Source of the DNA: Eledone cirrhosa | Lineage: Eukaryota | NCBI GenBank assembly: GCA_964016885.1 | Contig: OZ024741.1 | Coordinates: 233,802,001 to 233,866,000 of the forward strand | Direction of reading: 5' to 3' | Length of the DNA: 64,000 bases | Part shown: positions 17,508-47,567 of the stretch, one piece after another | Numbering within the stretch: position 1 is the stretch's first letter | How the letters are laid out: every line of letters starts with the position of its first letter | Notes under the pieces: generated by a model | Seen by the model: only the letters and a program-made list of their open reading frames with translations | What the model was told of the DNA's origin: nothing | Databases searched by the model: none | Program-made: the position numbers and the translations under genes

Positions 17508-17920
17508 TTACATTTAAGTAAGTGCCATACTAAGAGTGAGAAATGAAATTTCGTTTTCATTTTGTTTCATATATACATACATACACATATATATATATAT
17601 ACATACATACATACATACATACACATATATATATATATATACATACATACATACACATATATATACATACATACATATATATATAAACATACATATGTTA
17701 CCAGTAGCACCAACTGGTGACCTGACATACATCCATATATATATACAGATATGCATACATATATATATATATACATACATATATACATACATATATATAT
17801 ACATGTATATATATATACATATATATACATATATACATATATACATACATATATATACACATATATACATACATATATATATACATATATACATACATAT
17901 ATATATACATATATACATAC

Positions 17921-17977
<57 letters not shown>

Positions 17978-18019
17978 ATATATATATATAATATACATAT
18001 ATATCTATACATATATATA

Positions 18020-20535
18020 GTAATAATAATAAAATTGAAGACTAAAATCCAAAGAGGGCTCAATAAGGATAAATATATATCAAATATATAAGAACCGTAG
18101 AGCAAATATTTATTAAAATAACAGATTAAAGTTTAAGCAAAGAATCGCTGCTTTCACCCTTAACGGGATCTTCTGAAACTAACAAAGTCAATCTGTAAAC
18201 GCAGAACTGGATATTTCAAAATACGTTGCAACCGGAGGAAGACAGGAAGACGATACTTTGGTTCGTGGAAACGTTCGCTGGCAAAGAACGGGAAAAAACG
18301 AATAATACGTCATTAAAAGGAGCGGTGAAAAACAATTACGCGCAAAGACAGAACCACGTTCAGGTATAAAAGAGGTCGTAGACTAATGTTCTCTTAGGTG
18401 GTGCATAGAGACGTTCTCTGGCAATGAACGAAAAAACGAAGATAATAAGTCATATGTGGAGCCTCGAGAACAATAGCACGCAAAGACAAAACCACGTAAA
18501 TGGTATAGCAGAAGTCGTAGACTAAAATTCTAACTAGGAGACCAAATGAATCTCCGCTACAGAGTTAAGAACAAAGTAAATAAATACAATACAGAAGTAA
18601 TAGAAATAAATAAATACATACACGCAAACAAATACGTACATACACAAGCATACGCAAAACCTTACCATAGGTATACAACCACGCACATATAAATATGTGT
18701 GTGTGTGTGTATGCTTGTGTACAAATAAATAAATAATTATATAAACGTATATAAGTAAATAAATACGTATATAACAAGCGCACACACATACCTACATATA
18801 ATTACACGAATGTTCAGACGTAAGTCAACTAAAACAAGAAGTACACATATACACACACCCACCATACGTACGAACCTGCATACTCACGCAGACGCAAAAC
18901 TCCCGTATACACATAGCCAAACCCTAAATACCAAAATATATAAAAATTATACGCCATTACAATCAAAGATACGTACGAGAAGGTATACAACCTTCACAAA
19001 ACATACAGGTAATATATACTTACCTATGCAAATAAGTAAAGGAATAAACAAAACATATATTTAGCTCCCACATCAGGACGTAAAATATCCACGTATAGAT
19101 CGTACTATCCATTAGGGTATAACGTGGGGCTGTAATACAGGAAAGTTTTGTGCATTTTATGTTTACAAGCCGAAATTGTCTCAGATTTTTTGTTTAAGAT
19201 GTGGTCTGTGGCGTAGAGTATTTCCAGGGCCTCAGCGGCACAGAGGTCACATGGTCTTTTATTTCCGTTATACAATCTAGCCCTAGCTAGGATCTCCCAG
19301 TGTAACTTATATTGGGTGTGGTTGTCTTTTAGACTCCAGATATAAGCTGAAAGTGACGTCATATTCCTTCTTAGAGGGTAACGAAAAGAATGGGTATGCA
19401 TGTAAAGACGCTGCTTGAAACTATTGGCAGTTAACCCTATGTAGACCCTACGGGACGTGGGTGTTACAACCTTACATTTGTAGACAATGTTACTAGAGAG
19501 GCATTTCCCGGATAGGGGGCAATCAGCCCGATTCCTACAATTACAGTTAGTACTAACTACAGGGTTGCACGTGTTCCTACGGCTAGGTAGTTTAGCTAAA
19601 TTTGAAGCTGTGATGTTATGTGCAAGGTTAGGAGTCGTAGAGTAAGAAATTTTAATAGTATTTCTAATAAAAATTTTACTATATTTATGTGTAGGGGGAA
19701 AATGCTTCCTAATAAGGGAAAGAAAGATCTTAGCTAATGGTGTGGCCACCTCCATATTATATGGTGGGTTAAACCAACAAATGCGACAGGATCTATTTCT
19801 TCTAGGTCTATTTTCATACTCTGTATATGCTACCTTATCGACAAATCCACTTCGAGCAAGAGCTTCATTGTAATAAGTGGAATGGTCGTTGAAAATGCGC
19901 TCGTTGGTGGAAAGACGGGAAAGCCTCAACGAAACGTTTCTTACCAGGTTCTTGGTTATGCTGGCGGGATGGTTGGAATGCTTACTTATGTAATTAAGCG
20001 TATCATTCGGCTTTCTATACGGGTAATACAACCCATTCAATAAATTGAGGGTAACGTCGAGGTAATTAACGACCGAGAGATTGGCCTCAACCTGTATAGA
20101 GAGGTTGAAGCCTTTAAAGAAGGCTGTGAGTTCTTTTCTGAACCTGTCGCAAGCACGAGGTCCGCACTTAGTCATGGTCAAAAGACCATCGTCACGGTAC
20201 AAACCACCGCCCGCGTTGGGGAATTCGTCCTTGATAGAGAAAAGAAGGAAAAGGCCAATAAGATCAGTAACCTCCGCAGAGTCACTGGCGCCCATACTCA
20301 CGTCGAATGGGGTACTATTGGATTTTTTAATCCAAATAGAGTCGTCGAAATTAATCACCGACTTTCGGGCATTGAGGATGACATCAACTTCGAAATCCTT
20401 AACCACTGTGAGTGTTTTAGCGAAATTGATAGCTGTAAGGAGAAGTGGTAAAGTGATGGAGGAGTAGTAATTGTTGATGTCGAATTGGATAAAACGGCAA
20501 TGTTCCTTGTTACATATGCCGTTGAACCAATCAAT
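18020..20535 (-). mobile_element. 5'-truncated Penelope-like element: RT + GIY-YIG ORF, 3' UTR with a ~140-bp tandem duplication, and pLTR
   Basis: ORF 19105-20535 has FIQFDINNYY, FDVSMGASDSAEV, LYRDDGL, NYLDVTL, CNCRNRADCPLSGKC, IVYKC..VYIGLT..FKQRLYMH, CDLC..E, CKH; direct repeats at ~18269-18392 and ~18408-18531. Confidence 0.93.
18131..18179 (-). ncRNA. Hammerhead-like motif in PLE pLTR (core CAGAAGA...GAAA)
   Basis: GUUU-CAGAAGA-UCCC(GUUAA)GGGU-GAA-AGCA(loop)UGCU-U-AAAC; stems I, II and III all pair. Confidence 0.6.
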
Positions 20536-20719
20536 AAATATACATATATATATATATATACATTTGATAAATCCGTAGCCCTGACTTAGCTGGGGATGAA
20601 CCATACAACCTTTGCTAGCAGAGAAAAATGAACAATAAATTATGATCATGAAGATGTTGGGGAAAGAGTGTTTGGAACTACACTAATGCTAAAAAAAAAC
20701 AAAAACTAGGAAACATTAT

Positions 20720-21250
20720 TATGAGATGTCGATGTATTTGAAAGATGAGTGGAAGGGAGGGAAACTACCTACACATGATGACTACGGGCTATCGAAGTTG
20801 ATAAAGTCAAAGAAGCAATCAGACAGATGAAAAATTGAAAATCAGCTGGTTCAGCGATAGTCACCAGCATAATCCATAATCACAATGACTGGCGTAGCAA
20901 TATAATCATTAATTGTTGCAAGGGAAATGTGATGCTCTACAGAGGTATAAAACTAATGAAAATGAAAAATAATTTTAGCACGATTAGTTAGAGAAAGATA
21001 CAAATTAGATGAGATAAAAATTGGTTTTGTGCCAGGAAGAAGCATCACACACACCGTTCTTAGTGAGATAACCACAAGAGAACTTCTTAGCCAAGTGCAA
21101 ACTGTTATATCTAGCTTTTGTTGATCTGGAAAAGGTTTTTGACAAAGTTCCATGATCAGTTATCTAATGGTTCTTAAGAAAACTAGGAGTAGATAAGTGG
21201 CTTGTCAGAACAGTGCAAGCCATGTACAGCAGATTGAGAGTAGGTAAAAG
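20720..21250 (+). mobile_element. Highly decayed RTE RT fragment
   Basis: Recognisable pieces: tacagaggtataaaacta, ggttttgtgccagga, gcttttgttgatctggaaaagg. Confidence 0.75.
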
Positions 21251-21485
21251 GATGATACACGTAAATATATATATTCACAGACACAGCATGGCTGAAACCT
21301 GCGCGTAGTTTCATCCCCACTTTGTGGCATCTTGGGCAAGTGTCTGTTTACGATAGGATTGGGTCAACGAAAACTTGGTGAATGAAAGAGGGTAGATTGA
21401 AGCTATTAGGATATTGTCGTATAGACTGTACCTGTAAATTAAATGTCTAGCTTTGTCACAATGAATCAACATGAGAATTACACTA

Positions 21486-22013
21486 GGCACTACCATGCTA
21501 TTAGCTGTCAGAAGTGAAAGTTTCGTCAACCTTCTCAATCGTAAACATCGTTTATTTCCGTATTACCACGCGTTATTTTAATAAAGCATATCGATGTAAG
21601 AGGAGTTACTTAAATGAAAATATAGGTGGCCCTTAAAAGGGCCAAATTAGAAAACAAATTTAAGATAATTAGAAAACAAGTCATGGTTATCAAATAAATT
21701 GGATTTAATCATTTATATTTTCATAGTCATGGTTATCAATGTAGAAAACAAGACATTTTCACCAACAGTGGAGTTAACTTAAATGAAAATATAGGCGGCC
21801 CTTAAAAGGGCCAAATTAGAAAACAAATATATGGTTATCAAATTTTTTTCACTAACCCGATACATGAAATTGATAACCATGACTATGAAAATATAAATGA
21901 TTAAATCCAATTGTTTATTAAAATAACGCGTGGTAATACGGAAATAAACGATGTTTACGATTGAGAAGGTTGACGAAACTTTCACTTCTGACAGCTAGTA
22001 GCATGGTAGTGCC
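21486..22013. mobile_element. Non-autonomous TIR element (100-bp TIRs, GG..CC ends, possible 8-bp TSD; Merlin-like?)
   Basis: TIRs 21486-21585 / 21914-22013 with about one mismatch; flanks ttacacta / gtatacta (6/8 match); internal direct and inverted repeats. Confidence 0.75.
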
Positions 22014-22148
22014 GTATACTAAACAGTATACACGTCTCTGGAATGTTCAACCACTTGCACGTTAATTTCACTAACAGAGTGTTCCGTTGGTTGAACAACT
22101 AGAATACTCAATGTTGAAACTGAAGTAGGTCAATTCCATGCATTATTA

Positions 22149-22332
22149 TAGAAAAACACTCCCCACCGATTTCAGTGAGAAATATTTTTTCCTCCGTTTT
22201 ATCGTCGGCCATCAATTAAATTTACCGCGAAACACTGCAAATGACGTTTTTCCAGGCAAACGGACGGGGGCCGGGGTTACAACTAGTGTTAGGGTTATTT
22301 CCCACTGAAATCGGTGAGGGGGTGTTTTCCTA
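22149..22332. mobile_element. Small MITE with ~35-bp imperfect TIRs
   Basis: tagaaaaacactccccaccgatttcagtgagaaata ... tatttcccactgaaatcggtgaggggggtgttttccta. Confidence 0.65.
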
Positions 22333-22838
22333 TGGATTTACCCATTCTATTTCCACACACACTTATACACTGTACATATTTTAATATGTACGCGCGCACG
22401 CAGAAATGACCAACAAGTTTCAAGTTGGGAAACAAATAAGTTTGAAAAGAATTCTGATAATGCGTAATAATATTTTCACACACACACACACACAAACATA
22501 TCTACATACATTTAAATCTGTACCTCACAGTATCTAATTTTAATCAGAAATTAACAAAAGGTTCACTTGAAAAGTTGTTTCTAAATGTTTCTTCAGTTTT
22601 ACCAATATTGACAGAAAAGTGTCTCGAGGGAGTGTTAAGAGTCATAAAACAAATTGCAAAGCAAATTATGTTTAATAAATACTTAATAACGCATCAATGA
22701 ATTGTGAATTTAAAAAAGGATACCTGCAGTTATAATAAAATACAAAATTATGAGTTAGGAAGATAAAATATTCAAAAATATTGATAATTACATACATGTA
22801 TATAAAAGAAATTATAGTATATTGATGTAAAGGTAACA

Positions 22839-23513
22839 CTATCGCATCTGAGTTTGTCTTTTTTTAAATTTCTCGATAGTTTTAAGAATTTTACTCCAGT
22901 CTACATGACAGTCATTACAATCATCGAGGGCTTTCAGGAGTTTTTCCAATCCACCAGACTTGAAACCTTCTTTTTTTACCCATGAATTAAATACTTTAAA
23001 CCTGAGCACGTAACCACCGTTGCTGGAGTCATTCAACTGACTAATAGTCGCCAAAGTAACACCTAATTGGATAGCAACAGCTTCCCAACCAGAACCGACA
23101 CTCCTTAAAAGGCTACCGAGAAGGTCTTCCTCCAGATTTAGACCGTTAGCCTTTTCAAGGATGTTATTTATGTCATAGATCACCATAGGTGAACTGTCAG
23201 CTGTCTCCAGGTATGCGACTATAGGATTCAAATCGTTTTCTGTTAGACAGGCCACGAATTCATCAAATCGTTCTGACTTATTCGATTTATCGTCACGTTT
23301 TATTTTTCGAAGAAGGATATCGAGAAAACACCGATTCTTTTTTTCTATAACTTTCTCTGCTTGAACGGTATGCATTTCCTCTGTACTGATAAGCTTCTTG
23401 GCAAAAAAGTGATCAAGAATCGCTTCTAACTCCACATCATTAATGTCACTGACAAGTTGTGTCCGACATCGTTGAATTTTGTTTGCATTCCCACGTAGCC
23501 TATTGTCGGCCAT
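22839..23513 (-). CDS. Intronless CARD + Death-domain adaptor protein (CRADD/RAIDD-like architecture), 224 aa
   Basis: N-terminal CARD-like pattern (IQRCRTQLVSDI..ILDHFFAKKLISTEE..V.AE....KNRCFLDILL....FDEFVACL); C-terminal DD-like pattern (LL.SVGSGWEAVAIQLGVT...I.....FNSW......LEKLLKAL); ATG in aaaATGG context at 23513. Confidence 0.8.
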   Translation of the reverse strand: MADNRLRGNANKIQRCRTQLVSDINDVELEAILDHFFAKKLISTEEMHTVQAEKVIEKKNRCFLDILLRKIKRDDKSNKSERFDEFVACLTENDLNPIVAYLETADSSPMVIYDINNILEKANGLNLEEDLLGSLLRSVGSGWEAVAIQLGVTLATISQLNDSSNGGYVLRFKVFNSWVKKEGFKSGGLEKLLKALDDCNDCHVDWSKILKTIEKFKKRQTQMR

Positions 23514-23845
23514 TTTAGTTGCCACCGGAACTGAGAGTGATTTCCCTTGAATTTACGTTCGACCGCAATTATTCTCGGGTCCCAATTAATAGGTAGTGTT
23601 TGGAATAAACGTGTGCTTGGGAGGGTAATCGGCAATTGTATATCTGTTCGTAAATATGGGTTTTCTTGTATGTTCTTTTTTTTTTTTGTCATATATAATG
23701 TATTCATATAAAATTAAATTATTATTATCTCCATATGAGTCACAATAGATAGATTAGCAAAATTTAATAGCCGAGGTGGGGGAGGATTCAAGACCTGAGA
23801 GTATATACCTCTTATTAAAACACTTCCTGGTTATACGAACTTTTT

Positions 23846-24261
23846 GTCTGAACAATTTGATGAATTTGTGGCCTGTCTAAAAAAAAAAAAAAGTACATTC
23901 GGATCCTATAGTCGCATACCTGGAGACAGCTGATAGTTCACCTATGGTCAATGAGATAAAGGCTAATGGTGTAAAACTGGATGAAAAACTTCTTGGTGAT
24001 ATATTATACAATGTCGGTTCCGGCTGGGAGGCTGTTGCTAACCAATTAGGCGTTACTCAGATGACAATTGGGAAAGCTAAAGAGAACGCACCAAACAACA
24101 GAGATAACCAGATATATTCTGTATTTAATTATTGGCTACAAAAAGAGGGTTGCGAGCCTGATGGATTGGAAAAACTCCTGAGAGCCATCGATGATGTTTC
24201 TGATAATTGTGATGTAGACTGGAGTAAAATTCTTGAAATTATCGAGAACAGTAAAAAATGA
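23846..24261 (+). CDS. 5'-truncated paralog: Death-domain-only ORF (23944-24261) preceded by a broken CARD tail
   Basis: Homology starts at ~23846 (EQFDEFVACL) and is interrupted by an A-run at ~23879-23892; the DD frame is open from MVNEIK to ENSKK. Confidence 0.65.
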
Positions 24262-24396
24262 AAAACATAAGGATCTTTTACTCAAAGTTACCTATTGAAA
24301 ACATAACGCAGGTTTGTGGTGGTGTTAGCTTTACATCAATATGTTATAGTTTCTTTTATATACATAGCCTTCAATATATGTTCTGAACAATATAAT

Positions 24397-24498
24397 TGTG
24401 TCTACTTTTTAGCACAAGGCCAGCAATTATTACAGTGTATTACTGGTACTTTATTTTATCGACCCCGTAAGGATGAAAGGCAAAGTTAACCTCGGCGG
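24397..24498 (-). mobile_element. Truncated SINE (Deu/Nin-domain-like core) with 17-bp TSD
   Basis: Core ctttgcctttcatccttacggggtcgataaaataaagtaccagt; TSD gttctgaacaatataat at 24380-24396 and 24499-24515. Confidence 0.85.
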
Positions 24499-25689
24499 GT
24501 TCTGAACAATATAATGTTGACTGGAATGCAATGGCACTAACGAAATCTAAGTATTTTTAACTTAAGATTCACTTTTAGTTATACAATCCAGAATTATGGA
24601 GTGTTGACGTTACATCAATATGTTATATTTTTTATTATATACATGTATATATCAACATTTGTAAGTATTTTATATTTGTAAGTATTTTATTATCTCATAA
24701 TAACTGTGGTAATTTTATTTTTTATTATAACTGCTGATAACTAAAACCCACTTATTAACGTTCACTTTGCGTTATTAATAAAGTAGTTCATTATTACTTG
24801 CAGTAACTATTATAATTGACTCCGTCATGTAATTTTTTGTTCATAACTCCGACCTGATACTTTTCGATTAATAGTGATAAAACTCAAGAAATATTAACCA
24901 GCAACGTTTTTAAGTGAACCTATTATCAGTTTCTCATGACATTTATGTACTATGTTAACTTCTAAAGCGAGGGAAGTATAATTATAAAGAAAGCTTCGCA
25001 AGTGCTCTCGTTAACGAAAAACTAATTTTCGGCGGTTTTTAACATCAAATTCAATCAAAATACACTAAAAAAAACGCGAGACGGGTATTATTGTTAAATT
25101 AACCGATATTTTTTTTAACATTTTACCGCATATATTTTATAATAGTTTCTTAATTGCAGAAGTTCACTCTGTACTAGTGCGTAGAAATTTTAAAAGGTAC
25201 ATTCCTAAATGCAGTCAAGCTAGTTCGGAGAAGCAGGAAGTATTATTATAGCAGTAGAAGACAGAAAATCTGTGCTAAAAGTCGATTCAAGGGAGATCAC
25301 TTACAGTTTGCTGGCATCCACTAACAACTGCTTGCGAACGTCAACAGAATTCAACGATCTTTGCAGTACTTAATCAAAAAAGGAAATGACGTTTTTTGAA
25401 AATAGCTATTCCCCTAACTTATGGGCATGGGAATCTGGAGAGAAAAAAATTGAATTAGACGTTTGCCATAATCCTATCATAGAATGGAAGTAAGGAGGGC
25501 TAACACAGCAATATTTGACTGAAACTTAATTTAGGAAATGGAAATTGTTGTTGTTTTTAACAGTAATAAATTGTTTTTTTTTGCAAATCATTAGCACCAT
25601 GCTAAATGAGTAGTTTGGGAGTAGTTGGTTTTTGCAATGGTTGAAATTGCAACACGATAATTGATTAGTAGTTGAGGTTACAAATAAAA

Positions 25690-26600
25690 TGAACCACATT
25701 ATTCGTCATGAAATATTGTGTACAGTGCTCAGGTGCACTACAACTCATCAAAAAGTGTATGTATAGTACATAGGGTAATGTACAAACGTCAGGAAAATGA
25801 ACAGTGCATGAGTCAGGATATACACATAGGTGCATGTGTATGGAAGGGGTACATCAGGTGTAGTCTTTGGCGAATTTCGGGGAGCATGAGGGTTTTAAAG
25901 GATGCAGTGTCTCGGCAGCTAACAACTGACGCAGGCAGTTTGTTCCATGCTTCAACAACTCTGAGCGTGAAAAAATGTTTACGAAAGTCATGGGAGCTGT
26001 GCTGTTTTCTGATTTTGTAGGCATGTCCACATGTGTTAGACACATGGAGATCAAAAAGGTGCTCAGGGTTGTTGTTGGCGAGATGGTTAATAACTTTGTG
26101 GGTGTTTACCAAGTCCATTGCCAGACGTCGGAGCTTCAATGAATCCATGCCCAAGCAAGTAAGGCGTTCAGAGTATGGTAGGTGTCTGATGGAGGGTATG
26201 CGCTTGGTTGCACGTCTCTGAACTGTTTCATCATAATCATCCATTAACGTCGGTTTTCCCTGTAGGAATGCTTGGAAGTGTCTACAGTACTCAAGCGAAG
26301 CTACTGATTTCTCAGATGAGCCGAGTTCCTGCATCTCCCATACTTTTCCACATTCATTTTATCGTAAATTGTAACCAAGAAACACTGTTGAAACTCTTGA
26401 AAATGATCTCAGTCTACACAAATAGGAAACAAATGTTGAGAAAGAATGGGCAAGCCTAAGAAGCACAGAAGAACACTCAAACACCTGAAACATTCTAGAA
26501 ATATCAGGACTGGTTTGGTGAACATGAAGGAAAGAATTAAGAAGCACAAACTTCTTTCTACCTATCAGTGTAACACATCTCATGCATCCAATAAATCATT
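25690..26600 (-). mobile_element. CR1-like LINE 3' fragment
   Basis: VQRRATKRIPSIRHLPYSERL..LKLRRLAMDL..RKHFFTLRVVEAWNKLP..FK; absent from the paralogous duplicated block. Confidence 0.85.
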
Positions 26601-27460
26601 ATTCATAGAGATACGCCAGAATATGCAAAATCTACCAAGACACATCCATGAAAATTAGCTGTAAGAAAAGCTAAAGAAAACCAGCATTATATTGATAGAT
26701 ATTACTGGAAGAGATTAAATGTATCATTGAAAGTCTCAATTCTTAGGAACTACACCTCTTAAGTGCTGATTAATCCCCATTTTACACACGTATAAAACAC
26801 ATTTTAGAGAGATGGGCTAAACACTTCAACACAGAAAATATTTTAAATCCCTCATTTAAACGTTTCAATAAAACATATACAACTGGACCACATTCATAAA
26901 CATAACTAAACCATATTTACTGAAAGGGGGTTATACGTAGTAGGCGTTCTATAGCTATGTGTAACGAGACCAATATTAAGGTTGAAAAGTTCAGCACAAA
27001 CAATATAAAAGTTAAAAACGAAACTTCAAACAGTTCTGGTTTAGTGTTAAACTTTTGAGCCTTTTTCAATAAACATTAGCACAGAACTATGTTACATGTA
27101 TTCTGAACATGATTGTGTACTGACTTGCTGGCCTTGTGCCTAAAGTAGAAACAATTATTATGATATATTGCCAGACCTCATATTTTGAGACATTTACTTC
27201 CGGCTATATATACGTTCGGAGTTCGAATATCGCTGAGGTCAACTTCGACTTTCATCGTTCGGGGATCGATATAATCGACTTTCCCCTCTCCGCCAATTCC
27301 AGGCCTTGTGCTTAGATTAGAAACTCTTGCTAGCTCTTACAAACCAGAATTAGCACAATTTACGTGACATATCAAGAAAACACACAACCATTCAACCGTG
27401 TCGTTTAGTTGGAATCAGTTAAACAACAATAATAATTATGGTACAGAAAGGGTTAAGTAA

Positions 27461-28240
27461 TCACATTGATGGCCTCCCCACAGCCCCGCTGGACAGGATA
27501 GAGAAGGCGTTTCCCCGGAGGATGGTAAGGGAAACGTGCTGAAAGAGCCATTGCAATTCGCGAGGGTCACACCTGCGGCTGGCCAGCTCAACGCCTATGG
27601 TGATGAGCAGGGAAGTAGCCCTAGGGCCGAAGACACTAGAAGTCTCCACTGCCAAGGGAACGACCGCAAACCTGTCGGAGAGCAACCGGTATTTGAACAG
27701 CTTGACCTCCTTAGCCCAACGTGCAGCAGAACCTGGGTTAGTCGCAGACTGCACCAGGTTGTGGCTGGAGAATGTGTCTCTGGATGTGGCATCCCAGACG
27801 AGGAGTTTGCCACCGCGGTACGGGAAGATGGTCATCCCGTTGGCCTTTTTACCGTCCCCTCGGTCCAGCCGCACGAGCTCAAGCTGGGAAGGGAAGCCTG
27901 CAGCGTCCAAGCCATGCTTTATGACCTCGTTGAGGGCAGCATGGCGTGGAAGGCGGCCGGCACTGTGGCGACAGGAAAGCGGGTGGAGGCCCAAAGAGTC
28001 CACGGTGGATCCACAGCGACATTGGTGTGGCTCGCAGATCCGGAGGCCAAGCCTCAAGTAAACGCCAGTGGAGAAGGAGGGCAAGGAATGGAGCCAGGCA
28101 CCATTGTGGGGTTTGGATGCCGCACGAAAACAGGTAAGGTGGTGCTACTCCAGCTGGCGCGTGAGCTTGTCTGAGGCCAGTCTGCACAGGATGCCATCCC
28201 AAATGCTGTGGGAGGAGTTGATGTCTGGCTCGTACACATA
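27461..28240 (-). mobile_element. CRE-type non-LTR retrotransposon 3' fragment (CCHC knuckle + restriction-like endonuclease)
   Basis: LRLG..CRCGSTVDSLGLHPLSC..RH..DGKKANG..LVWDAT..K..KY..VPLAVETS..RGNA; GC-rich island. Confidence 0.8.
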
Positions 28241-28336
28241 ATTGAGGTCGAATGTTAAGTATATTGAGTCGAGTTCCGGGTTACATTTCCTCCATATTTG
28301 TTTCTCAAATCATCTCTCGACTGTGTACATACCAAA

Positions 28337-28982
28337 ATGGCCGGCACTAAGCGACGTGGGAATGCGAACAAAATTCAACGATGTTGGACACAACTTGTGA
28401 GTGACATTAGTGATGTGGAGTTAAATGCGATTCTTGATCACTTTTTTGCCAAGAAGCTTATCAGTGCAGAGGAAATGCATACCGTTCAAGCAGAGAAAGT
28501 TATAGAAAAAAAGAATCGGTGTTCATCGAAAAATGAAACATGACGATAAATCGAATAAGTCAGAACAATTTCATGAATTCGTGGCCTGTCTAACAGAAAA
28601 CGATTTGAATCCTATAGTGGCATACCTGGAGAAAGCTGACAGTTCGCCTATGACCAATGACATAAATAACATCCTTGAAAACGCTAAAATAGTAAAACTC
28701 AATGAAAAACTTCTTGGTGATATATTACACAATGTCGGTTCCGGCTGGGAGGCTGTTGCTAACCAATTAGGCGTTACTCAGGTGACAATTGGGAAAGCTA
28801 AAGAGAACGCACCAAACAACAAAGATAAACAGATATATTTTGTATTTAATTATTGGCTACAAAAAGAGGGTTGCGAGCCTTATGGATTGGAAAAACTCCT
28901 GAGAGCCATCGATGATGTTTCTGATAATTGTGATGTAGACTGGAGTAAAATGCTTGAAATTATCGAGAACAGTAAAAAATGA
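28337..28982 (+). pseudogene. CARD + Death-domain paralog split by a small frameshifting deletion (~28527)
   Basis: MAGTKRRGNANKIQRC..KKNRC then a frame change to KHDDKSNKSEQF..ENSKK; the FLDILL codons of the intact copy are missing. Confidence 0.8.
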
Positions 28983-29782
28983 AAAACATAAGGATCTTTT
29001 ACTCAAAGTTTCCTATTGAAAACATAACGCAGATTTGTGGTGGTGTTAGCTTTATATCAGTATGTTATAGTTTCTTTTATATACATGTATGTACCTATCA
29101 ATAGCCTTCAACATATGTTCTGAACAATATAATGTTGACTGGAATGCAATGTAACTTATATTTTTTTTATTATATACATGTATATATCAATATTTGTAAG
29201 TAATTTACCGTCATATTTCATAATAACTGGTAATTTTATTTTTTATTATAACTGCTGATAACTAAAACTAAAACCCACTTATTAATGTTGACTTTGCGTT
29301 ATTAATAAAGTAGTTCATTATTACTTGCAGTAACTATTATAATTGACTCCGTCATGTAATTTTTTATTCATAACTCCACCCTGATACTTTTCGATTAATA
29401 GTGATAAAACTCAAGAAATATTAACCAGCAACGTTTTTAAGTGAACCTATTATCAGTTTCTCATGACATTTATGTACTATGTTAACTTCTAAAGCGAGGG
29501 AAGTATAATTATAAAGAAAGCTTCGCAAGTGCTCTCGTTAACGAAAAACTAATTTTCGGCGGTTTTTAACATCAAATTCAATGAAAACACACTAAAAACA
29601 AACGCGAGACGGGTATTATTGTTAAATTAGACCAGTTATTTTTTTACATTTTACCGCATATATTTTATAATAGTTTCATAATTGCAGAGATTCACTTTGT
29701 ACTTGTGCGTAGAAATTTTAAGAGGTGCATTCCTAAATGCAGTCAAGCTAGTTCGGTGAATCAGGAAGTATTATTATAGCAG

Positions 29783-29875
29783 GTTAACTTTGCCTTTCAT
29801 CCTTACGGGGTCGATAAAATAAAGTACCAGTAATGCACTGAGGGAATTGCTGGCCTTGTGCCAAAAGTAGAAACA
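29783..29875 (+). mobile_element. Truncated SINE (same subfamily as 24397-24498) with 13-bp TSD
   Basis: TSD attattatagcag at 29770-29782 and 29876-29888; empty site in the paralog at ~25242-25254. Confidence 0.85.
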
Positions 29876-30289
29876 ATTATTATAGCAGTAGAAGGGAGAA
29901 AATCTGCGCTAAAAGTTGATTCAAGGGAGATCACTTGCAGTTTTCTGTCATCCACTAATATACAGCTGCTTGCGAATGGCAACACAATTCAACGATCTTT
30001 GCAGCACTTAATCAAAAAGGGAAATAACGTTTTTTGAAAATAGTTATTCTCCTAACTTATGGACAGGGTCCACTGTCATAAGAGATATGTAGTAGTCATA
30101 TAATAATTCATAGAGATACGCCAGAATATGCAGAATCTACTAAGACACATCCATGAAAATTAGCTGTAAGAAAAGCTAAAGAAAACCAGCATTATATTGA
30201 TGGATATTACTGGAAGAGATTATATGTATCATTGAAAGTCTCAATTCTTAGCAACTACACTTCGTAGGTGCTGATTAATCAACATTTTA

Positions 30290-30800
30290 TACATATATAA
30301 AACACATTTTAGAGAGATTGGCTAAACACTTCAACACAGTCCTGAACCATCCATCAACAATAAATGTTTAATCTTTCAACTGGATCAAGTCAAAACAAAC
30401 TTTCAGCTAAACAATCATACTGCAGAAGTAGCATACTAGCAAAAACTACTAAGCAACTGACCTGCAGCAAAACTGAATCAGGTATCATACCAGCAGAAAT
30501 TTACAAAATAGAGGCCTCTATTCTACATTAGAGGTTGACAGAATTATTCCAATATCTCTAGAACTAAGGTAAGCCCCCATGGGAATTCAAAGACACTTTG
30601 TTGGTCAATATCTACAGGTGCAAAAGGAACAGGGAGTCATGTGATAACCACTGGGGCCTCTCTGCTGTTCTTTGCTGGGAAGATCCTTACCAGAGTTCTT
30701 TTGAACCACCTCATCAAATAGTTTGAGACTTCTCTGAACTTAGAAATCCAATACAGTTTCCACGTAGGGCATGGCATTGTAGATATGGTATTCACCTTTA
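30290..30800 (+). mobile_element. Decayed RTE/BovB-like RT fragment
   Basis: Remnants resembling HILERWAKHFNTVLN, CDNH.G.SLL..GKIL.RVLLN, IVDMVF. Confidence 0.55.
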
Positions 30801-32842
30801 TTGCCAGATAATATCATGATGATACGATAGTTAATGTCCTTGATACTTCTTATGATGTTTTAGTTTATGCTAATGTAAACATACCAAAATTATTTGATCC
30901 ACTAGAGTGTTTCAGGCAATAAAAAAAATTTGAAAGGGAAAAATTGTGTGAAAAATGTTTAGTTATTTTGTAATCAATTTATACACTTCTGACACAATTT
31001 TGAGGTTTATCTTTTCGATGATGACTGATTTTCTAGTTTTTCAATTAGGAATAGAATAAAAGAAGTATATTTGAGCATGAGTTTAAGTTAATCCAGACAA
31101 TTGAATATGAACGCAATGTAAACATTTCCATGGACAATCTTTGATTGAGAGATTCAACATTTGTGATGACTGGAGAAAAATGGAAGTACTGACTATGTTT
31201 ACTATGGAGTTTTGTAGAACTGAATGACACATCAGGTGTACAGTTACCATGGACCAATCAGAATGCTCCAACAGATCGTACTTTATTTTTAGTAAGTATA
31301 TATTTAAACAAAAACTGATATATTTAAAGGTTTTTGATTTTTGTTAATGGACAAATATCTCACCCATTATTCAAGATAGATCCATCAAATATTTTGTAAT
31401 TACATTCAGAATTCACATGAACAAAGTGTAATTATCAACTACCCAAGTGTATTTCTGCCTCAGTTTCTATTGCTGGATGGCCTTCCTAACACCAACCACA
31501 TTTACAGGGTGGAGTGTGCAGTTATTGTTGTCTCATGTCACTAACATGACCACTCTATAGGGTGGACTAGGTACTATTGTTGTGTCACCATCACAACGAC
31601 CACCACCACTTTAGAAGGCTGAGTAGGTGCTCTTTGTCATGTCACCAACTTGAGTGCTCATCAGAGCAGTTCGGGTGCCATCTGTCTTGCCAATAACATG
31701 ACTTTTCAAAATGAGCTGGGTACCTTCTGTCATGTCCCCAACATGACCACCTCACAGGGTGGACTGATTACTTATTTCTCATGTCACCAGCACAACTACC
31801 TTGCAGGGAAGGTTAGCTGCTGTTTTGTCATAACACCTGCATGACAACCTTACTGAGGGTCGACTCAGGGCTTTTAGCCAATTCAGCAGCATTGTGGGAG
31901 AGCATGTTAAGCTTTCTATACTTGTCTACATTGGTTGGTCAAGAGAGGTGAATCAGATGTTGAAAATGGTGTTGGGGGTGTGGATTGGAGAGGTAGGTCA
32001 GTGTGGGGTACTTAGCTGGAAGTGGGTGGGTATCAACTACCCAAGTGTAACAAGTGTTAATAGAGGAAAGAGCAATAAACAGTAAACACATGAGTTACAA
32101 TTACCTTCCTTCAAAAAATGGCCTTCAATGCATCAAGATACCTATCAAGAGTAAAGACCCCCTTTGATCATAAATGACTATTATTTTTGCAACTAGAAAG
32201 TTCCCCTCTGAGGCACAAACCTAGGCAAGGTGTTTTCTGTGGAAGATCAGCAGTCACCCATGCATGCCAGTCTCCCCTCTCCATGCCACCAATGTTGTTC
32301 AAAGGAGAGGCAAATAAAATAGCTATATATTTACCATCATAATCATAATATTATTATTATTATTTTTCAATTTCCACTTGAAAAGGGAGGTGAGGGTGGA
32401 AAGGGATGTGCTCCTTTTCAGTACATTTACCAATGGGTGGGTGAAAGTAGCAAAAATGATAAAAGTTAATGGGACTACTCTCAGCTTATGCCTGTATGTT
32501 GAACAATGATAGTTGGAGGAGGGCACTCACCCCTGGAGGTCAAAGCAATTGTAGATTTGTGGTGTTCTTCAATTAGCCTTAGGTATTCAGCTCCCTATAA
32601 CAGGAGGACTGAATGCCACATATAATTGTCCACTATATATATATCCAACTTGTATACTATGTATACATGTCGGCCACACTTTTTTCCATGGAAAAATGGA
32701 CATAAAACGGTGATAATGATGATGATGGTGATAATTTGAAACTTCCTTTGAATTCAGCTTCTTTCCTAAATCATGCCATGCGTCAACCTGACACTTGAGG
32801 CAAAATTTGACAATATACACATTTTACAATCAATTGTTTTCT

Positions 32843-35140
32843 ACTCGATGCCTATGACAGTAAAGAAGAACAGATAGAGACATTCAATGTAGAAGAGCAC
32901 TGGGAGTTCCTAAAAAATAACTTACTAAAGGCAATGGACGAGATCTGTGGTTGGAGAAAGTCCACAGGGAGGAGGAGAGTAACTTGGTGGTGGAATAATA
33001 AGGTAAATGAGGCAGTTAAGGCTAAGAGACAGGCATGGAAAGAATGGAAGAACGGGGGAAGCAGGGCACATTACATAGAGATCAGGTGGGAAGCTGGTGA
33101 CAAGTATACTTAACTAGAATGGAAGCGGAGGATAGAAAATTCAAGCATGTTTTGCAATGTGAAGACCTGAAACAGGTGTTCAAGATTGCGGGGCAGTGTG
33201 TCAGAGACGATTGTGATGTCATTGAAGAGAAGTGTATCCGGAATGTAAAGATGAGCTTACCCTCACAAGTGCTGAGAAGAAAGCGGCATAAAAGAGACAT
33301 TATGAAAGATTACTAAATGAGGAGAATGCATGGGAAAAAGAGACCCTACCCCAAGTGGACCCTATAGAGGAGCCAGCAGTACAAGTCAGCAGCAGCATAG
33401 TAAGTAAGGCAATCAAAGATATGAAGACAGGGAAGGCAGCCGGTCCATCGGGTATAGCTGCCGAGATGCTGAAGGCATCTGAGTCAGTAGGTCAGACCAT
33501 AACCACACAAATTGTTAACCAAGTAATACTAGAGGGTATCATACCAAAGGATTGGCGCAGCAGCATCATTGTCAACTGCTACAAGGGTAAAGGTGATGCA
33601 CTAGATAGAGGAAACTATAGAGGTATAAAGCTGAAGGATCAGATCATGAAAGTAATGGAAAGAGTTATAGCACAGTTGATTAGGGACCAGGTAAAACTAG
33701 ATGAGATGCAATTTGGGTTTGTACCAGGAAAAGGCACCACTGATGCCCTCTTCCTTGAGAGGCAGTTACAAGAAAAGTACCTAACTAAAAGTAAGCCGCT
33801 CTACCTGGCATTCGTCGATCTGGAAAAAGCCTTCAACAGTCCCCTGTGGTATAATCTGGTGGGCTCTTAGAAAATTAGGAGTAGATGAATGGCTTGTGAA
33901 ACTGTACAAGCCATTTATAGAGGAGCAGTCAGCAAAGTTAGGGTTGGCAATGACTATAGCGAGAAATTTAGCATACAGGTCGGTGTCCTCTCCTGTTCAT
34001 TATAGTTTTGCAGGCAATAATGGAGGAGTTTAAGCCTGGATGCCCCTGGGAACTCCTATATGCAGATGATCTCGCACTTATAGCTGAATCTATGGTGGAA
34101 CCAGAGAAGAAATTCGAAGCATGGAAGCAGGGACTAGAAAGAAAGGGTATCAAAGTCAACCTGACAAAGACTAAGGTTCTTGTAAGTAGACAAGAAAACA
34201 GAACCCAGTATGTAGGAAAGGTGTAGGTAGGAACTCCATCCTCTGCCCCAAATGCAAACAATGGGTACACAAGAGATGTAGTGGTATCTCAGGAAGCTTA
34301 ATTAAGAATGTATGCTTCATATGTAGCAGTGCGCTAGGACAGCAAGCAGCAAACAACCACAGGAAACAAGTACCACCAAACTCTGGGAGGGCTCTGTAGA
34401 AACAGTAGACAGCTCTGCTACCTAGGTGACCGAATTAGCAGCGGAGGTGGGTGTTTGTAAAGTACAAAAACTAGGGTAAGAACATGATGGAAGAAGTTCA
34501 GGGAGCTACTGCCACTGCTAGCTGCAAAAGGCTTTTCCCTCAAAATGAAAGGCAGACTATATGATGTGTGTATACAAGCAGCAATGTTACATGGTAGTGA
34601 GACCCAGGCGCACTCTGTAGAAAACTTGTGCAGATTAGAAAGAAACGAAGCTTGCATGCTCCGATGGATGTGTAATAGAGGAATCAAATGCTGTATGCAG
34701 TAGAGGAGGTTGCGTTGGTATGGACATGTGATGCGTATGAAGCAGGACAGCTGCATAAAAAGCTGCAGAGCACGAGAAGCCATGGAGTGCACCTCTCAAG
34801 GGTGATGACACATGGCTGTGGCCTCTGGCATCGCGCAGTAATACAGAAGACCCGACTTCCCATGTGTACAAGCCGAAGCTGAAGCATATAGTCAATATGC
34901 CCCCACTCCCTCCCACTGCAAAGTGGCCCTGCAGGTGCAACAGCAAAAAAGCACCCAGCCTACACTGTAAATGAGGTTGGTGTTAGGAAGGGCATCCAGC
35001 TGTAGAAATCAAGCCAGAATCAGTTCCCGTATGAGCAAGTCAAGGTCAGCTGACTGGACACTGCCCACAACAGGACAACCCATCTAACCCATGCTAGCAT
35101 GGAAGAGCGGACGTAAAACAGTGATGATGATGATGATGAT
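32843..35140 (+). mobile_element. 5'-truncated decayed copy of the RTE LINE at 12915-16667
   Basis: High DNA similarity from gcctatgacagtaaagaagaacagatagag through the 3' UTR and (gat)n tail; multiple indels and stops. Confidence 0.93.
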
Positions 35141-35299
35141 GTTTTACAGATGATGTCACAAGGGCACAAACATCAGTTAAAGTCTTTGTAAGCTTTTTAA
35201 ATTGATCATGCCCTTCTTAGTGCCAGTCAGCTCTATTCTCTTATCTCTTGCAGAGATGGCTTTCCAGTTATTTGTGCCAAATATTTTTCAGTTCCCTTT

Positions 35300-35700
35300 T
35301 TTATCATTTTACCAAGTGCACTGGTATTGTACAGGCCTTAAGATACCACATTTTCTCAATTTCAATAGATAGATCTTTATATGTACTGAGCTTTCTAAAC
35401 TCTTTTGAGGAAATGTTATGATCTGATGGAATGCTCATGTCAATTAAGAAACATGTTTTCTCTTTATGGTCCATTGGCTTTGATTGTTCTATCAGTATTC
35501 ACAGGGAAATCCCAGAGGATTGTTACATTCTTGCCTCCTATTACTTCATCTGGGTGATAGTTGTGCCATTTTCCCTCTGTTTTCAGACCATAAGACATGC
35601 ACATTACCTGGTGTAAGTATTGCCCTACTCTATCATGCCTCGTTTTATATTCCTGGGGAGTTAATACTTGGCAGCCTGAAACCAGGAGGTCTATGGTTCA
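35300..35700 (-). mobile_element. R4/Dong-type non-LTR retrotransposon fragment (restriction-like endonuclease region)
   Basis: Manual translation of the minus strand: EYKTRHDRVGQYLHQVMC..WHNYHPDEVIGGKNVTILWDFPVNTDRTIKANGP*. Confidence 0.75.
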
Positions 35701-36779
35701 ACATAATCAACATGGATAAAGTATAGGGCTAGAAGAGTGTAGTTCTCTGTTAAAGGAAGCCTGTTAACCATACCATTTTGTTTGAGGTGAGTAGGAAGGT
35801 CGTCATTGCGTATCTTACTGCAAGGGAACAGAATAGGCTTACAATCTGGCTTCACTTCTATTTCTGGAGAACAACAGAAAACAAGGGTTAAATATGAAAG
35901 GAAGAAAGAAAGAATCAGCTTTATAAAACATTTTAAAGGAAATCAGTAAAGTAGATAAAATGGTATGGATTTGGTAGAGTGTTGTGGTGTAGTGGTGTAG
36001 CGGTGTATTGGTGCAGTGAGGGTGTGGTGTAGTGGTTGAGTGGTTTCTTGGTGTAATGTAGTGGCATATACATATTTAAAATGTTGGAATCAAAACACAG
36101 AAATCGCTATATATAATAATAGCTTTAGAAAATCAGGTAAAATACCTTTAGGGACAGAAAAAAATGACTAGCAGCCACTAGAGAAGCAAACCATGTGTCT
36201 CTCAAATTCTGGTTGAACATATTACCACAATGCCAAATGACAGCTGACAACAGCTGTAAAGTTGTTATATATAGCTGCTAATTTGGGAAGAAAATGTCAA
36301 CCATAGTGGTAATACACTCAACATTTCAAATACCGAATCCTCCAAACACGTCGATAAATCATAAGATGAAAAATATGTGTGTGTGTAAACTAAGTGGTTA
36401 ACTTAAGAAGAATTTGGAAAATTTGAAAGTTGAAATGTATGCATCCCAACTTAAATTACCATAATAATAGTCGATCACAATAAATAATTGTTGAGAAAAT
36501 CTGGTAATATACCAACAGAGATTTGAAAAAAAATGGCCTGAGGTACTTGTGAGGAACTGAACATCAGGCGAGTGTGTTAGCCACTATGTTAAAGAGGTAC
36601 TAGCCACTGATTCTGTCGTTTTAGACAATTTTAAGGTGGCAGCTAGAAGTCTAAGCAGAACGTAGTGGTTAACGCACGTGGTTCGAATCCAAGAGATGTG
36701 GGGTTTGATTCTTTGCAGCTTCTTCTGTCCACTTTTTTCCGTTTTTAGGGCAACTTTGTGATCAACTAATATATATGTA

Positions 36780-37250
36780 GGAAGCCTGCACAGTACACTC
36801 TACATGTAAATGGAGTTCCACTAAACCTGGTAAAGAAGTTCATGTATCTCAGGGACATGTTCACGAGTGATGGAAGCCAGGAGGTTGAATTAAGTTAAAA
36901 AATGGCAGGAACTGGTGCAGTAATGTGCCAGCTTCAGCATTCAGTAATCAGAAGAGAGGAAGGCGTAAAAGCCAAACTCTCTAGCTTCAATTCGGTTTTC
37001 GTGCCAACCCTTACCTATGGTCATGAATCTTGAGTAATGATCAAAAGAATACAATAGCGAATACAAGCGGCCAAAATGGAGTTCCTTCGAAGGGTCTTTG
37101 CAGTAACATTACTCGATAGAGTGCGTAGCTTGGAGATCAGAGAGTCACTCCAGGTAGAGTTGCTACTTGTCCGAATTGAGAGATCACAGCTCTGATACTA
37201 TGGGCGTGTGATTAGAATGTCTCATGAAAGAATCGCTGGACAGATTTTTC
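36780..37250 (+). mobile_element. Decayed RTE-like LINE C-terminal fragment (different family)
   Basis: Manual translation: VFVPTLTYGHES*VM..RIQAAKMEFLRRV..TLLDRVRS.EIRESL..IERSQL*YYG.V.RM. Confidence 0.7.
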
Positions 37251-37605
37251 CAGTCTACTTCTCAACAAGGAAGATGAAAAAACTTCCCTCGACACTTAAT
37301 TTTAAGTCTTTAATTTTTAGTTTTTAATTCTTATTAATTCTTTTTAATTGTATTACTCAACATTTGATAAGATGAATTTTACTAATACATTGAAACAGGT
37401 TATACTTTGTATACTTTATATACATTATAAAACACTTTTTTTAAAAGAATTGTCCCTCTCATTTTTTCAATAATGTCACTTTGACGAATCGAAGAAAGGA
37501 AAAAAAAGAAAAATAGACCCTTAAATATATTTTCCATGCTATTTCCAATTTCACCTCTTCTCTGTCTCTCTCTCTCTCTCTCTCTCTCGCTCACTCTCTC
37601 TCTTG

Positions 37606-37637
<32 letters not shown>

Positions 37638-38122
37638 GTTGAATGTGTGGTTGTAATCACTAAGGTGAATATGTAATCATAGAAATAAATATACTATATT
37701 GTGTAAAAATCACTGGCGGTGCCTTTCTGACTGATGAACGAGGCAAAATCAACTCTCTTAAGGAAATTCTGACTCCTGGGGCGGTATAGGCCAGTTTGCC
37801 AAGTATTTTACCCAATATAGTATATATACATATACTTATATGTATATATAGGTTATTAGGTGGGTAACTTGTAGTTACTAGCAGCTACGCTGGTTGAAGC
37901 ACTCAATGCTGTTACTCTGTCCATCAGTCATTAGCTTGTGCTCCAGCTTTAGGGTGGCTGTAGTTTGCAGAGTGTATATCTGAAGAAGTGTCGATTGAGA
38001 GTTGGGATCCGATCGCATGATCAAATCCGAGCTGATTGATAGAGAAACAAATTGTAATATGAAATAAAGTTTACAAAAAGCTGCAATTCTTATTGTCACT
38101 TTATACATATATATATATATAT

Positions 38123-39879: not shown

Positions 39880-40187
39880 TCGGTTTCAACACACGTTTTC
39901 AGATAAAGAATCTTGCTAAACAAATTCAAAAACGATATATATATATATACCAAAAGTAGAACTATACAAACAATTCTCAAAGGAAAATAGTAGTATGAAA
40001 ATGATAGTATGTAATTGCTAGGTTTTAAAAAAGAAATAACTCAATGCGTTTATAAAATATTTAAAGGTTTGAAGAGAAAGAATGGAATACATATATCTTT
40101 TGAAACATGTGTAAAAGAGTAAATATGGCTTTTAGATAAAAGAAGCTAAATTTTCCATTTATACTCTTGTTTATATATATATTTATA

Positions 40188-40345
40188 TCTTCTGAAGATT
40201 CCATATAGGGTAAGCAGAAATTCTTTGCTTGAACTTTAATCTGTACTAATAATAAATATTTGCTCTGCTGGTTTATATATACTTATATATATACAATCCT
40301 TATCAAGCCCTCTTCGGATTTTGGTCTTTGTATTTATTATTACTA
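40188..40345 (+). mobile_element. Solo PLE pLTR relic related to 18020-18180
   Basis: ctgaagattccatataggg..ttctttgcttgaactttaatctg..ccttatcaagccctcttcggatttt. Confidence 0.6.
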
Positions 40346-40459
40346 TATATATATATGTATACATACACACAAACATACATACATACGCACATACATATAC
40401 ACACACACACACGTATGTGTGTGTTTGTGCATATATATATGTATATATATACATACATT

Positions 40460-41060: not shown

Positions 41061-41109
41061 TATACATACGCACACACACACACACACAGAAGTGTGTGTG
41101 TGTGTGTGT

Positions 41110-44697: not shown

Positions 44698-44754
<57 letters not shown>

Positions 44755-44911
44755 AACAAAAGATGGTTTTTAACCATCTTTTGTTCTTATATATTATGTA
44801 TACTCCAGTCCTACAAACTGTAGAGTGCTTCTTATCCGATATCTGCATTGCTTTATTGTACTACAATAAAACTCACCTCCTACATATAAATATATATATA
44901 TATATATATAA

Positions 44912-46192: not shown

Positions 46193-46193
<1 letters not shown>
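44912..46193. mobile_element. Non-coding fold-back element (PLE-like pLTR inversion) carrying two hammerhead copies
   Basis: Inverted arms 44990-45161 / 46021-46193; a second inverted pair at ~45540-45600 / 45965-46023; no RT ORF. Confidence 0.75.
46084..46179 (+). ncRNA. Type I hammerhead ribozyme with U3-A8 core variant (mirror copy at 45004-45099, minus strand)
   Basis: CCCC-UUGAAAA-GUUCGGCUAUUU...AAAUAGCCAUC-GAA-ACGGC(UUGAGCUCU)GCCGU-C-GGGG. Confidence 0.7.

Positions 46194-46227
<34 letters not shown>

Positions 46228-47536: not shown

Positions 47537-47566
<30 letters not shown>

Positions 47567-47567
<1 letters not shown>

What the first reader, a model, noticed from the sequence alone, without database searches (positions are those of the whole stretch)
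22839..28982. Recently expanded cluster of intronless CARD+Death-domain adaptor genes in three states: intact, DD-only and split
Seen in sequence: three paralogs within 6 kb. One is an intact 224-aa CARD-DD gene (-). One is a head-to-head copy (+) that lacks nearly all of the CARD but keeps an open DD frame from its own ATG (23944). The third (+) has a small deletion that splits the CARD from the DD, and the DD frame begins at an ATG (28533). The CARD halves of copies 1 and 3 are nearly identical, while the DD of copy 1 (SQLNDSSNGGYVLRFKVFNSWVKK) differs strongly from copies 2 and 3 (GKAKENAPNN[R/K]D[N/K]QIY.VFNYWLQK). Established: CARD-DD is the CRADD/RAIDD (PIDDosome adaptor) architecture, and single death-fold proteins often act as decoys. 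Inference: a lineage-specific, possibly retroposed, innate-immune or cell-death adaptor family that diversifies its DD interface and may produce DD-only regulators.
Basis: partly seen in the sequence, partly recalled or inferred. Interest (0 to 1): 0.72.

Follow-up and report, generated by a model that had tools for sequence, protein, structure and literature searches.

The report
Fast-evolving octopus death-adaptor gene array
These three genes are one of three repeats of a ten-copy octopus array of CRADD-like cell-death adaptor genes, five intact and five broken, in which copying between neighbours likely keeps one binding end alike while the other end changes fast, and the two shortened copies here are likely decaying leftovers rather than dedicated regulators.

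Summary
The window has three intronless CARD+death-domain (DD) paralogs: C1 intact, C2 DD-only, C3 split by a 14-bp deletion. They are one of three ~65-70 kb segmental repeats, which together carry 10 copies, 5 intact and 5 broken. Octopus and Argonauta have a related multigene cluster, so the family is octopod-wide. The young copies arose by DNA duplication, not retroposition. The near-identical CARDs come from gene conversion: a sharp break at codon ~120, and both tract ends visible in copy B3. Among intact copies the DD shows 33 amino-acid-changing versus 3 silent changes (dN/dS about 3, p 0.01-0.035), clustered around helix 3, which RAIDD uses for assembly. The broken copies show a similar but non-significant excess. 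C2's start codon is an internal Met present in all ten copies, and C2 is an 878-bp deletion product of an already broken lineage. One unlabelled, RNA-like run holds C1-, B3- and A2-type contigs. The array is CRADD-like, but a PIDDosome role is not shown. Verdict: a birth-and-death adaptor array with likely selection on the DD; functional DD-only decoys are unlikely (about 15%).

The parts
22839..23513 (-). C1: intact intronless CARD-DD gene, DD type I, 224 aa (CARD about residues 8-104, DD about 129-223)
   Evidence: C1-specific alleles in contigs of the RNA-like run X4
23843..23850 (+). junction of an 878-bp deletion (against unit A) that removed the upstream DNA and most of the CARD of C2
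   Evidence: three-unit alignment; not checked in reads
23846..23943 (+). CARD helix-5/linker remnant of C2, out of frame with the DD after an A-run at 23879-23892
23944..24261 (+). C2: open 105-aa DD type II frame from the inherited internal Met, with the 15-bp in-frame deletion of the broken A2/B2 lineage
24357..24364 (+). switch from A2-type to A3-type sequence downstream of C2, inferred unequal crossover that removed one copy from this unit
   Evidence: diagnostic sites
28337..28543 (+). C3 5' frame: truncated CARD (62 residues) ending out of frame at 68 aa
28533..28982 (+). C3 3' frame: 149 aa, end of the CARD, linker and DD type II, from an inherited internal Met; overlaps the stop of the 5' frame
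17771..57075 (.). part of segmental unit C that has 94-99% blocks in units A and B upstream of the window; holds the CARD-DD cluster and a C2H2 zinc-finger gene
   Evidence: self-comparison of 218 kb
51481..53826 (-). 781-aa C2H2 zinc-finger frame duplicated with the cluster; intact here, broken in units A and B

Best explanation
The three genes belong to a ten-copy tandem and segmental array of intronless CARD-death-domain genes, five intact and five broken, whose intact products likely act as CRADD-type adaptors that would oligomerise through the DD and recruit a CARD caspase through the CARD. Shown: two DD types sit head to head (type I on the minus strand, type II on the plus strand) in three ~65-70 kb units. 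The CARD and linker are 6-7% different between types, the DD about 30%, with a break at codon ~120. Inferred: gene conversion between the inverted neighbours keeps the CARD (caspase-recruiting) end nearly the same in all copies, while the DD (input) end is released and, in intact copies, likely under diversifying selection around helix 3 and the following loop. Unequal crossover and deletion keep removing and breaking copies. C2 and C3 are likely pseudogenes of this birth-and-death process. C2 is a deletion product of a lineage whose CARD was already dead (A2/B2), and its DD frame stays open likely because the copies are young and exchange sequence.
For: Copy census: 10 close copies plus 2 distant intronless paralogs, 16 matches among 23 candidates; frames; units, no N in 218 kb. 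Conversion: C1/C3 differ at 23 of 351 nt left of the break and 87 of 283 right, 0 of 2000 permutations reach this, and likewise in 4 further pairs. B3 shows both tract ends against type I (codons 1-20 30-32% different, 21-120 2-9%, 121-180 28-50%). Four-fold sites follow the same pattern, 0-4 of 26-36 left and 3-6 of 20-23 right. CARD and DD trees disagree. Selection: intact DDs 33 nonsynonymous, 3 synonymous, dN/dS 3.0 (p=0.035) or 3.7 with the flank transition bias (p=0.010). B1/C1 replacement sites differ 4.0% against 0.7% in their flank (p=1e-6), A4/B3 DD 12 of 221 against 53 of 3456 (p=4e-4), while the broken pair A2/B2 matches its flank (p=0.59). 15 of 32 changed positions lie in residues 153-176 (p=0.008). 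That stretch aligns with RAIDD helix 3, which PMC4977500 describes as important for complex formation. CRADD likeness; an abalone CARD-DD protein hits only this array in the genome, 10 matches among 13 candidates. CARD caspases exist in the genome. Decay: lesions and 8-11 ATGs ahead of the DD-frame Met in A1, A2, B2 and C3; A2/B2 carry A147T at a nearly invariant position. Contigs of run X4 carry C1- and B3-specific alleles.
Against: No binding partner or function was tested. The four broken type II copies also show 9 nonsynonymous to 1 synonymous change in the DD (dN/dS 2.4-3.0, not significant), so part of the excess may be bias or imported by conversion. Neither DD type is significant alone under equal rates (p=0.08, 0.28). 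A3/A4 does not exceed its 3' flank (p=0.52). The 153-176 window was chosen after seeing the data, and several tests were run. No purifying selection is detectable among the young copies, the CARD included (8 synonymous, 39 nonsynonymous, dN/dS 1.2-1.5), which also fits relaxed constraint. By sequence the C1 DD scores best with RIPK1 DD and the B3 DD with PIDD DD, CRADD close behind. An A2/B2-type broken copy is present in X4. X4 is not on record as RNA and only its contigs are available.
Confidence: 0.6

Rival explanations
1. Neutral hitch-hiking: the array grew only because it lies in an unstable duplicated region. One or two copies do the ordinary CRADD job, the rest are redundant and drift, and the nonsynonymous excess is noise or conversion.
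For: Half the copies are broken. The co-duplicated zinc-finger gene is broken in 2 of 3 units. There is no purifying signal among young copies, and broken copies show a similar DD excess.
Against: Replacement sites of intact pairs diverge 3-6 times faster than their flanks in 3 of 4 comparisons, while the two comparisons with broken copies do not. Changes cluster near helix 3. Octopus species expanded the same locus on their own.
Confidence: 0.25
2. One reading: DD-only (C2, A2, B2) and split (C3) copies are translated and would dampen adaptor assembly, as CARD-only proteins do for caspase-1.
For: The DD frame is open in A2, B2, C2 and C3, while all four inactivating lesions of A2/B2 fall in the CARD and linker. 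The C2 frame is predicted to be a complete death fold. An X4 contig spans the broken CARD of an A2/B2-type copy. There is a precedent in primate CARD16/17/18 (PMC11630849).
Against: The start codons are inherited internal Mets. A2/B2 have 9-11 ATGs ahead of the DD Met, and the C3 upstream frame overlaps its downstream start. C2 lost its upstream DNA. DD similarity to intact copies extends into non-coding 3' flank, so it needs no selection. A1 is broken inside the DD too. A2/B2 diverge at the flank rate.
Confidence: 0.15
3. Assembly artefact: the three units are uncollapsed haplotypes, or the breaks are sequencing errors.
For: Some blocks between units are over 99% identical. An earlier finding in another octopus genome reports a false frameshift (unchecked). 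The C2 and C3 deletions were not checked in reads.
Against: Three units with three different type I sequences exceed two haplotypes, differ in copy number and lie in gap-free sequence. Contigs from public runs carry alleles specific to units A, B and C. An X4 contig crosses the A2/B2 stops and deletions without a gap.
Confidence: 0.05

Closest known systems
CRADD/RAIDD (human DD structures 2o71, 2of5; molluscan CRADD in PMC11463336)
   Same: N-terminal CARD, C-terminal DD, about 200-225 aa. RAIDD DD is the top fold match for the type II DD. The three nearest Atlas clusters are CARD+DD, two of them named CRADD (score 0.88-0.89, lead level). Octopus relatives are annotated CRADD.
   Different: Ten intronless copies in two DD types instead of the single conserved activator that the paper describes. 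Type I has lost the helix-3/loop motif shared by type II and RAIDD. No PIDD partner is reported in molluscs, and no CARD similarity to the solved CRADD CARD was seen.
Octopod CARD-DD cluster (O. bimaculoides LOC106868330, LOC106868333, XP_052828593; O. sinensis LOC115219506, LOC118766027; O. vulgaris CAI9733324/328/330; Argonauta GAB1604215/217)
   Same: 38-49% identity over the full length for the closer members. Several paralogs per species lie on contigs of equal length with neighbouring accession numbers, including the divergent neighbour type found 100 kb upstream here as L015.
   Different: Two to three members were found per species by these searches, against ten plus L015 here. In the best trees the five intact copies group together (CARD 80/79, DD 88/86, not firm), so this expansion looks independent. 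Synteny rests on accession order, not on DNA.
Primate CASP1/CARD16/17/18 locus (PMC11630849)
   Same: Death-fold genes under repeated segmental duplication, pseudogenisation and gene conversion that overwrites CARDs.
   Different: There the truncated genes are CARD-only and have tested inhibitory function. Here they are DD-only or split, untested, and the parent is an adaptor, not a protease.

Membership tests
CRADD/RAIDD adaptors | N-terminal CARD plus C-terminal DD and no other domain | tested here: met
   Pfam, two helical domains in the model, pLDDT 84, CARD and DD fold matches
CRADD/RAIDD adaptors | DD closer to RAIDD DD than to other DDs | tested here: inconclusive
   Type II: RAIDD best by fold, PIDD E=3e-5 then RAIDD E=1e-4 by sequence. 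Type I: RIPK1 best. The Octopus relative P0005 hits RAIDD best, E=1e-6.
CRADD/RAIDD adaptors | Orthology to molluscan CRADD | tested here: inconclusive
   An abalone CARD-DD protein and an O. vulgaris 'CRADD' find this array as their best matches in the genome. The cephalopod family is one clade apart from other molluscan CARD-DD proteins in the DD tree, 100/100. No vertebrate CRADD was in the tree, the abalone protein is unnamed, and a divergent multi-exon gene could be missed.
CRADD/RAIDD adaptors | CARD binds a caspase-2-type CARD | not tested
   Candidate CARD caspases exist in the genome; binding was not examined.
PIDDosome | A PIDD partner in the genome | tested here: inconclusive
   PF10461 found nothing, but the search rang in no control genome either. 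PMC11463336 reports no PIDD in lophotrochozoans.
Retrocopies | Intron-containing parent, and homology that ends at transcript ends | tested here: not met
   All full-length matches in the genome are single open frames. Homology between young copies runs for kilobases into both flanks. An ancient intron loss before the family spread cannot be tested.
Single-domain death-fold decoys (CARD16/17/18-like) | Own transcript and translation of the single-domain frame | tested here: inconclusive
   No run on record as RNA. An X4 contig covers an A2/B2-type copy. Translation is not testable here.
Single-domain death-fold decoys (CARD16/17/18-like) | Selection maintaining the single domain | tested here: inconclusive
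   A2/B2 coding differences 5 of 606 against flank 25 of 3899, p=0.59; broken type II DDs 1 synonymous, 9 nonsynonymous. Too few changes to decide, and no sign of constraint.

The most novel reading that the evidence does not exclude
Octopods have turned the single molluscan CRADD into a diversified immune-type adaptor family: gene conversion holds one shared caspase-recruiting CARD constant while pathogen-driven selection diversifies the death-domain helix-3 surface, so different copies couple different inputs to the same caspase without PIDD or APAF-1, and the DD-only copies serve as tuning decoys.
Probability: 0.2. Interest if true: 0.78.

Novelty: new variant of a known kind. Interest (0 to 1): 0.47.

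Why it matters
PMC11463336 proposes CRADD as the only CARD-type caspase activator in molluscs, which lack APAF-1 and PIDD, and argues it is therefore conserved. An octopod array with ten copies, two DD types, CARD conversion and a likely selected DD surface does not fit that picture. It offers a natural series of variants for asking what activates caspase-2/Y in molluscs. It also parallels the primate caspase-1 locus in a different death-fold family. If the excess of amino-acid changes is only drift, it is an ordinary birth-and-death cluster.

Tried and rejected
No RNA holder listed. X4 contigs gave no cover at several C2- and C3-specific places (23811, 24231, 28410); contigs drop variants, so this is not used as evidence. 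Type I DD with type II DD complex prediction: no answer, score 0.00, alignments not used. Search for short relatives of the 105-aa C2 frame: 1 candidate, none significant; word-based and not evidence of absence. PIDD family search uninformative. Foldseek of the two-domain C1 model gave no match at E<=0.001; the best rows were CARDs and DDs. Idea that type II is the ortholog of the Octopus 'CRADD' group and type I of LOC115219506: suggested by motifs and by B3's N-terminus, but not supported by diagnostic columns or trees (forced clades p-AU 0.040 and 0.09 for the DD, 0.14 and 0.17 for the CARD), so left open. X4's T>C at 23301 looked like RNA editing but is the allele of 7 paralogs. Contig depth as a copy-number test was dropped because the contigs could not be assigned to units. 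In one search the first four windows of the C2 rows cover non-homologous DNA and were ignored. Literature searches listed no paper on an octopus CRADD array; subscription papers are not in the library. The octopus CRADD accession used in PMC11463336 did not appear in the supplement passages I saw.
Full report
Observation. The three frames are as described. C1 (22839-23513, minus strand) is an intact 224-aa protein. Pfam gives CARD E=2.4e-9 and Death E=0.0017, the latter under the curated cut-off. The model has two helical domains, mean pLDDT 84. C2 (23944-24261) and the 3' frame of C3 (28533-28982) pass the Death cut-off, and the 5' frame of C3 passes the CARD cut-off. The C2 frame is predicted to fold as a full six-helix DD, best matched by RAIDD DD. 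The closest proteins come from Octopus and Argonauta, so the genome is taken to be an octopod's; I did not identify it further.

The cluster is larger than the window. A search of the own genome gave 16 matches among 23 candidates. They resolve into ten close copies within 150 kb and two distant intronless paralogs (27% identity; one 100 kb upstream, one 105 Mb away). A self-comparison of 218 kb without gaps shows three ~65-70 kb units, mostly 94-99% alike. Unit A has A1(-), A2, A3, A4(+); unit B has B1(-), B2, B3(+); unit C, the window, has C1(-), C2, C3(+). Forty kb downstream of the window held no further copy. A3, A4, B1, B3 and C1 are intact. A1 has a frameshift, a stop and deletions in the DD end. 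A2 and B2 have two stops, a 13-bp deletion and a frameshift in the CARD and linker. C3 has a 14-bp deletion at the same spot as the 13-bp one. Each unit also carries a C2H2 zinc-finger gene, intact only in unit C. C2H2 genes are a known expanded cephalopod family (PMC9068888, passages).

How C2 and C3 arose. C2 shares the 15-bp deletion and the A-run of A2/B2. Against unit A it lacks 878 bp, covering the upstream DNA and most of the CARD. It is A2-like up to about 24357 and A3-like beyond 24364, which points to an unequal crossover. Its ATG is the Met of 'SSPM' found in all ten copies. The C3 ATG at 28533 is also inherited and lies inside the upstream 68-codon frame. A1, A2, B2 and C3 have 8-11 ATGs from the ancestral start to the SSPM Met. 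The copies carry kilobases of shared flank and no intron-containing parent was found, so the young copies are DNA duplicates. An ancient intron loss cannot be tested.

Why the CARDs match and the DDs do not. Between minus-strand (type I) and plus-strand (type II) copies, divergence jumps at codon 118-122: 23 of 351 nt against 87 of 283 for C1/C3, with 0 of 2000 permutations as extreme, and likewise in four more pairs. Four-fold sites follow the same step, so this is not selection on protein alone. B3 differs from type I by 30-32% in codons 1-20, 2-9% in codons 21-120 and 28-50% in codons 121-180, which is an internal conversion tract with both ends visible. CARD and DD trees disagree. DD dS between types is about 0.5, with dN/dS 0.57-0.76. 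In protein trees the five intact copies group together against Octopus and Argonauta paralogs, but not firmly.

Selection. Counting distinct variants among intact copies, the DD has 23 nonsynonymous and 2 synonymous changes in type II and 10 and 1 in type I. Pooled dN/dS is 3.0 (p=0.035), or 3.7 (p=0.010) with the transition bias measured in flanks. Replacement sites exceed flank divergence for B1/C1 (p=1e-6), A4/B3 (p=4e-4) and A3/A4 against the 5' flank (p=6e-4), but not A3/A4 against the 3' flank (p=0.52). The comparisons with broken copies, A2/B2 (p=0.59) and A4/C3 (p=0.34), show no excess. Fifteen of 32 changed positions fall in residues 153-176 (p=0.008, window chosen after the fact). 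This stretch aligns with RAIDD helix 3 and the next helix; PMC4977500 (passages) gives the helix-3 peptide and says it matters for complex formation. Against this, the broken type II DDs show 9 to 1 (not significant), the CARD shows no purifying signal (39 to 8), counts are small, and conversion confounds them. I read this as likely, not established, diversifying selection.

Expression. No run is on record as RNA. Run X4, from a second sample, has 88 Mb of contigs against about 1,400 Mb in the two runs laid beside it. Its cover in non-repeat sequence is uneven and centred on the frames, so it looks like a transcriptome; this is inference. Its contigs carry alleles found only in C1 among the ten copies (for example at L035 1395, 1420, 1468, 1469, 7644), a 951-nt piece matching the B3 DD end and 3' flank, and a 523-nt A2/B2-type piece that crosses both stops and both deletions without a gap. 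Contig depths (52-64 for C1 and B3, 12 for the A2/B2 type) cannot rank genes. So C1 and B3 are likely transcribed, and a broken copy may be. Nothing here shows translation.

What it is like. The architecture is that of CRADD. The nearest Atlas clusters are CARD+DD, two named CRADD (lead level). An abalone CARD-DD protein and an O. vulgaris 'CRADD' both find this array as their best matches in the genome. Octopus and Argonauta each have two or three related proteins with neighbouring accessions. PMC11463336 (passages, section 10 in full, supplement passages) reports that molluscs lack APAF-1 and PIDD and proposes CRADD as a single conserved activator of caspase-2 and caspase-Y. The genome has CARD caspases. 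The proposed mechanism, DD oligomerisation and CARD recruitment of a caspase, follows from the family and was not tested. A PIDDosome in the strict sense is not shown. O. vulgaris skin mucus contains a protein named CRADD (PMC11431876, passages); which paralog is not stated there. The closest evolutionary parallel is the primate CASP1/CARD16-18 locus (PMC11630849, passages). PMC4346834 mentions CRADD only in a legend. The searches listed no description of an octopus CRADD array.

Verdict. A real, octopod CRADD-like birth-and-death array with clear CARD conversion and likely selection on a DD interface. The DD-only and split states are most simply decay. New variant of a known kind; interest 0.47.

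Noticed in passing
window 21486-21585 and 21914-22013: A 100-bp inverted repeat (99%) downstream of C1. An X4 contig has T>C at 21986 and 21989 (A>G on the C1 strand), absent from all paralogous places and from X1/X2. It looks like A-to-I editing in a long 3' UTR, but may be an allele of another animal.
   Followed up: partly
window 23537-23546 (-): A kappaB-like 10-mer 24-33 nt upstream of the type I start in all three units, one mismatch from the consensus as I recall it. The same stretch resembles the annotated N-terminal extension of O. bimaculoides LOC106868330.
   Followed up: partly
window 51481-53826 (-): A 781-aa C2H2 zinc-finger frame, 97.6-98.4% identical to broken copies in units A and B.
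   Followed up: partly
L015:1498-2073 (-) and L016:1495-2157 (+): Two divergent intronless CARD-DD-like paralogs. L015 has a shortened helix 3-4 region and groups with O. vulgaris CAI9733324 and Argonauta GAB1604217 in the CARD tree. L016 lies about 3 kb from another C2H2 frame.
   Followed up: partly
L043, L051, L058: CARD-caspase-like proteins encoded in single open frames of 350-463 aa, candidate partners of the array.
   Followed up: no
L021:3700-3760 (B3) and the A2/B2 5' ends: These keep an older type II N-terminus and a 15-bp upstream insertion. Two residues match the Octopus 'CRADD' group rather than the LOC115219506 group, a hint of an older paralog split overwritten by conversion.
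   Followed up: partly
window 1624-3108, 5184-7881, 13245-16364, 19105-20649, 38429-39570: Reverse-transcriptase and endonuclease-like frames of retrotransposons, judged by eye, and long AT-rich microsatellites. The 1039-aa frame at 13245-16364 is open.
   Followed up: no
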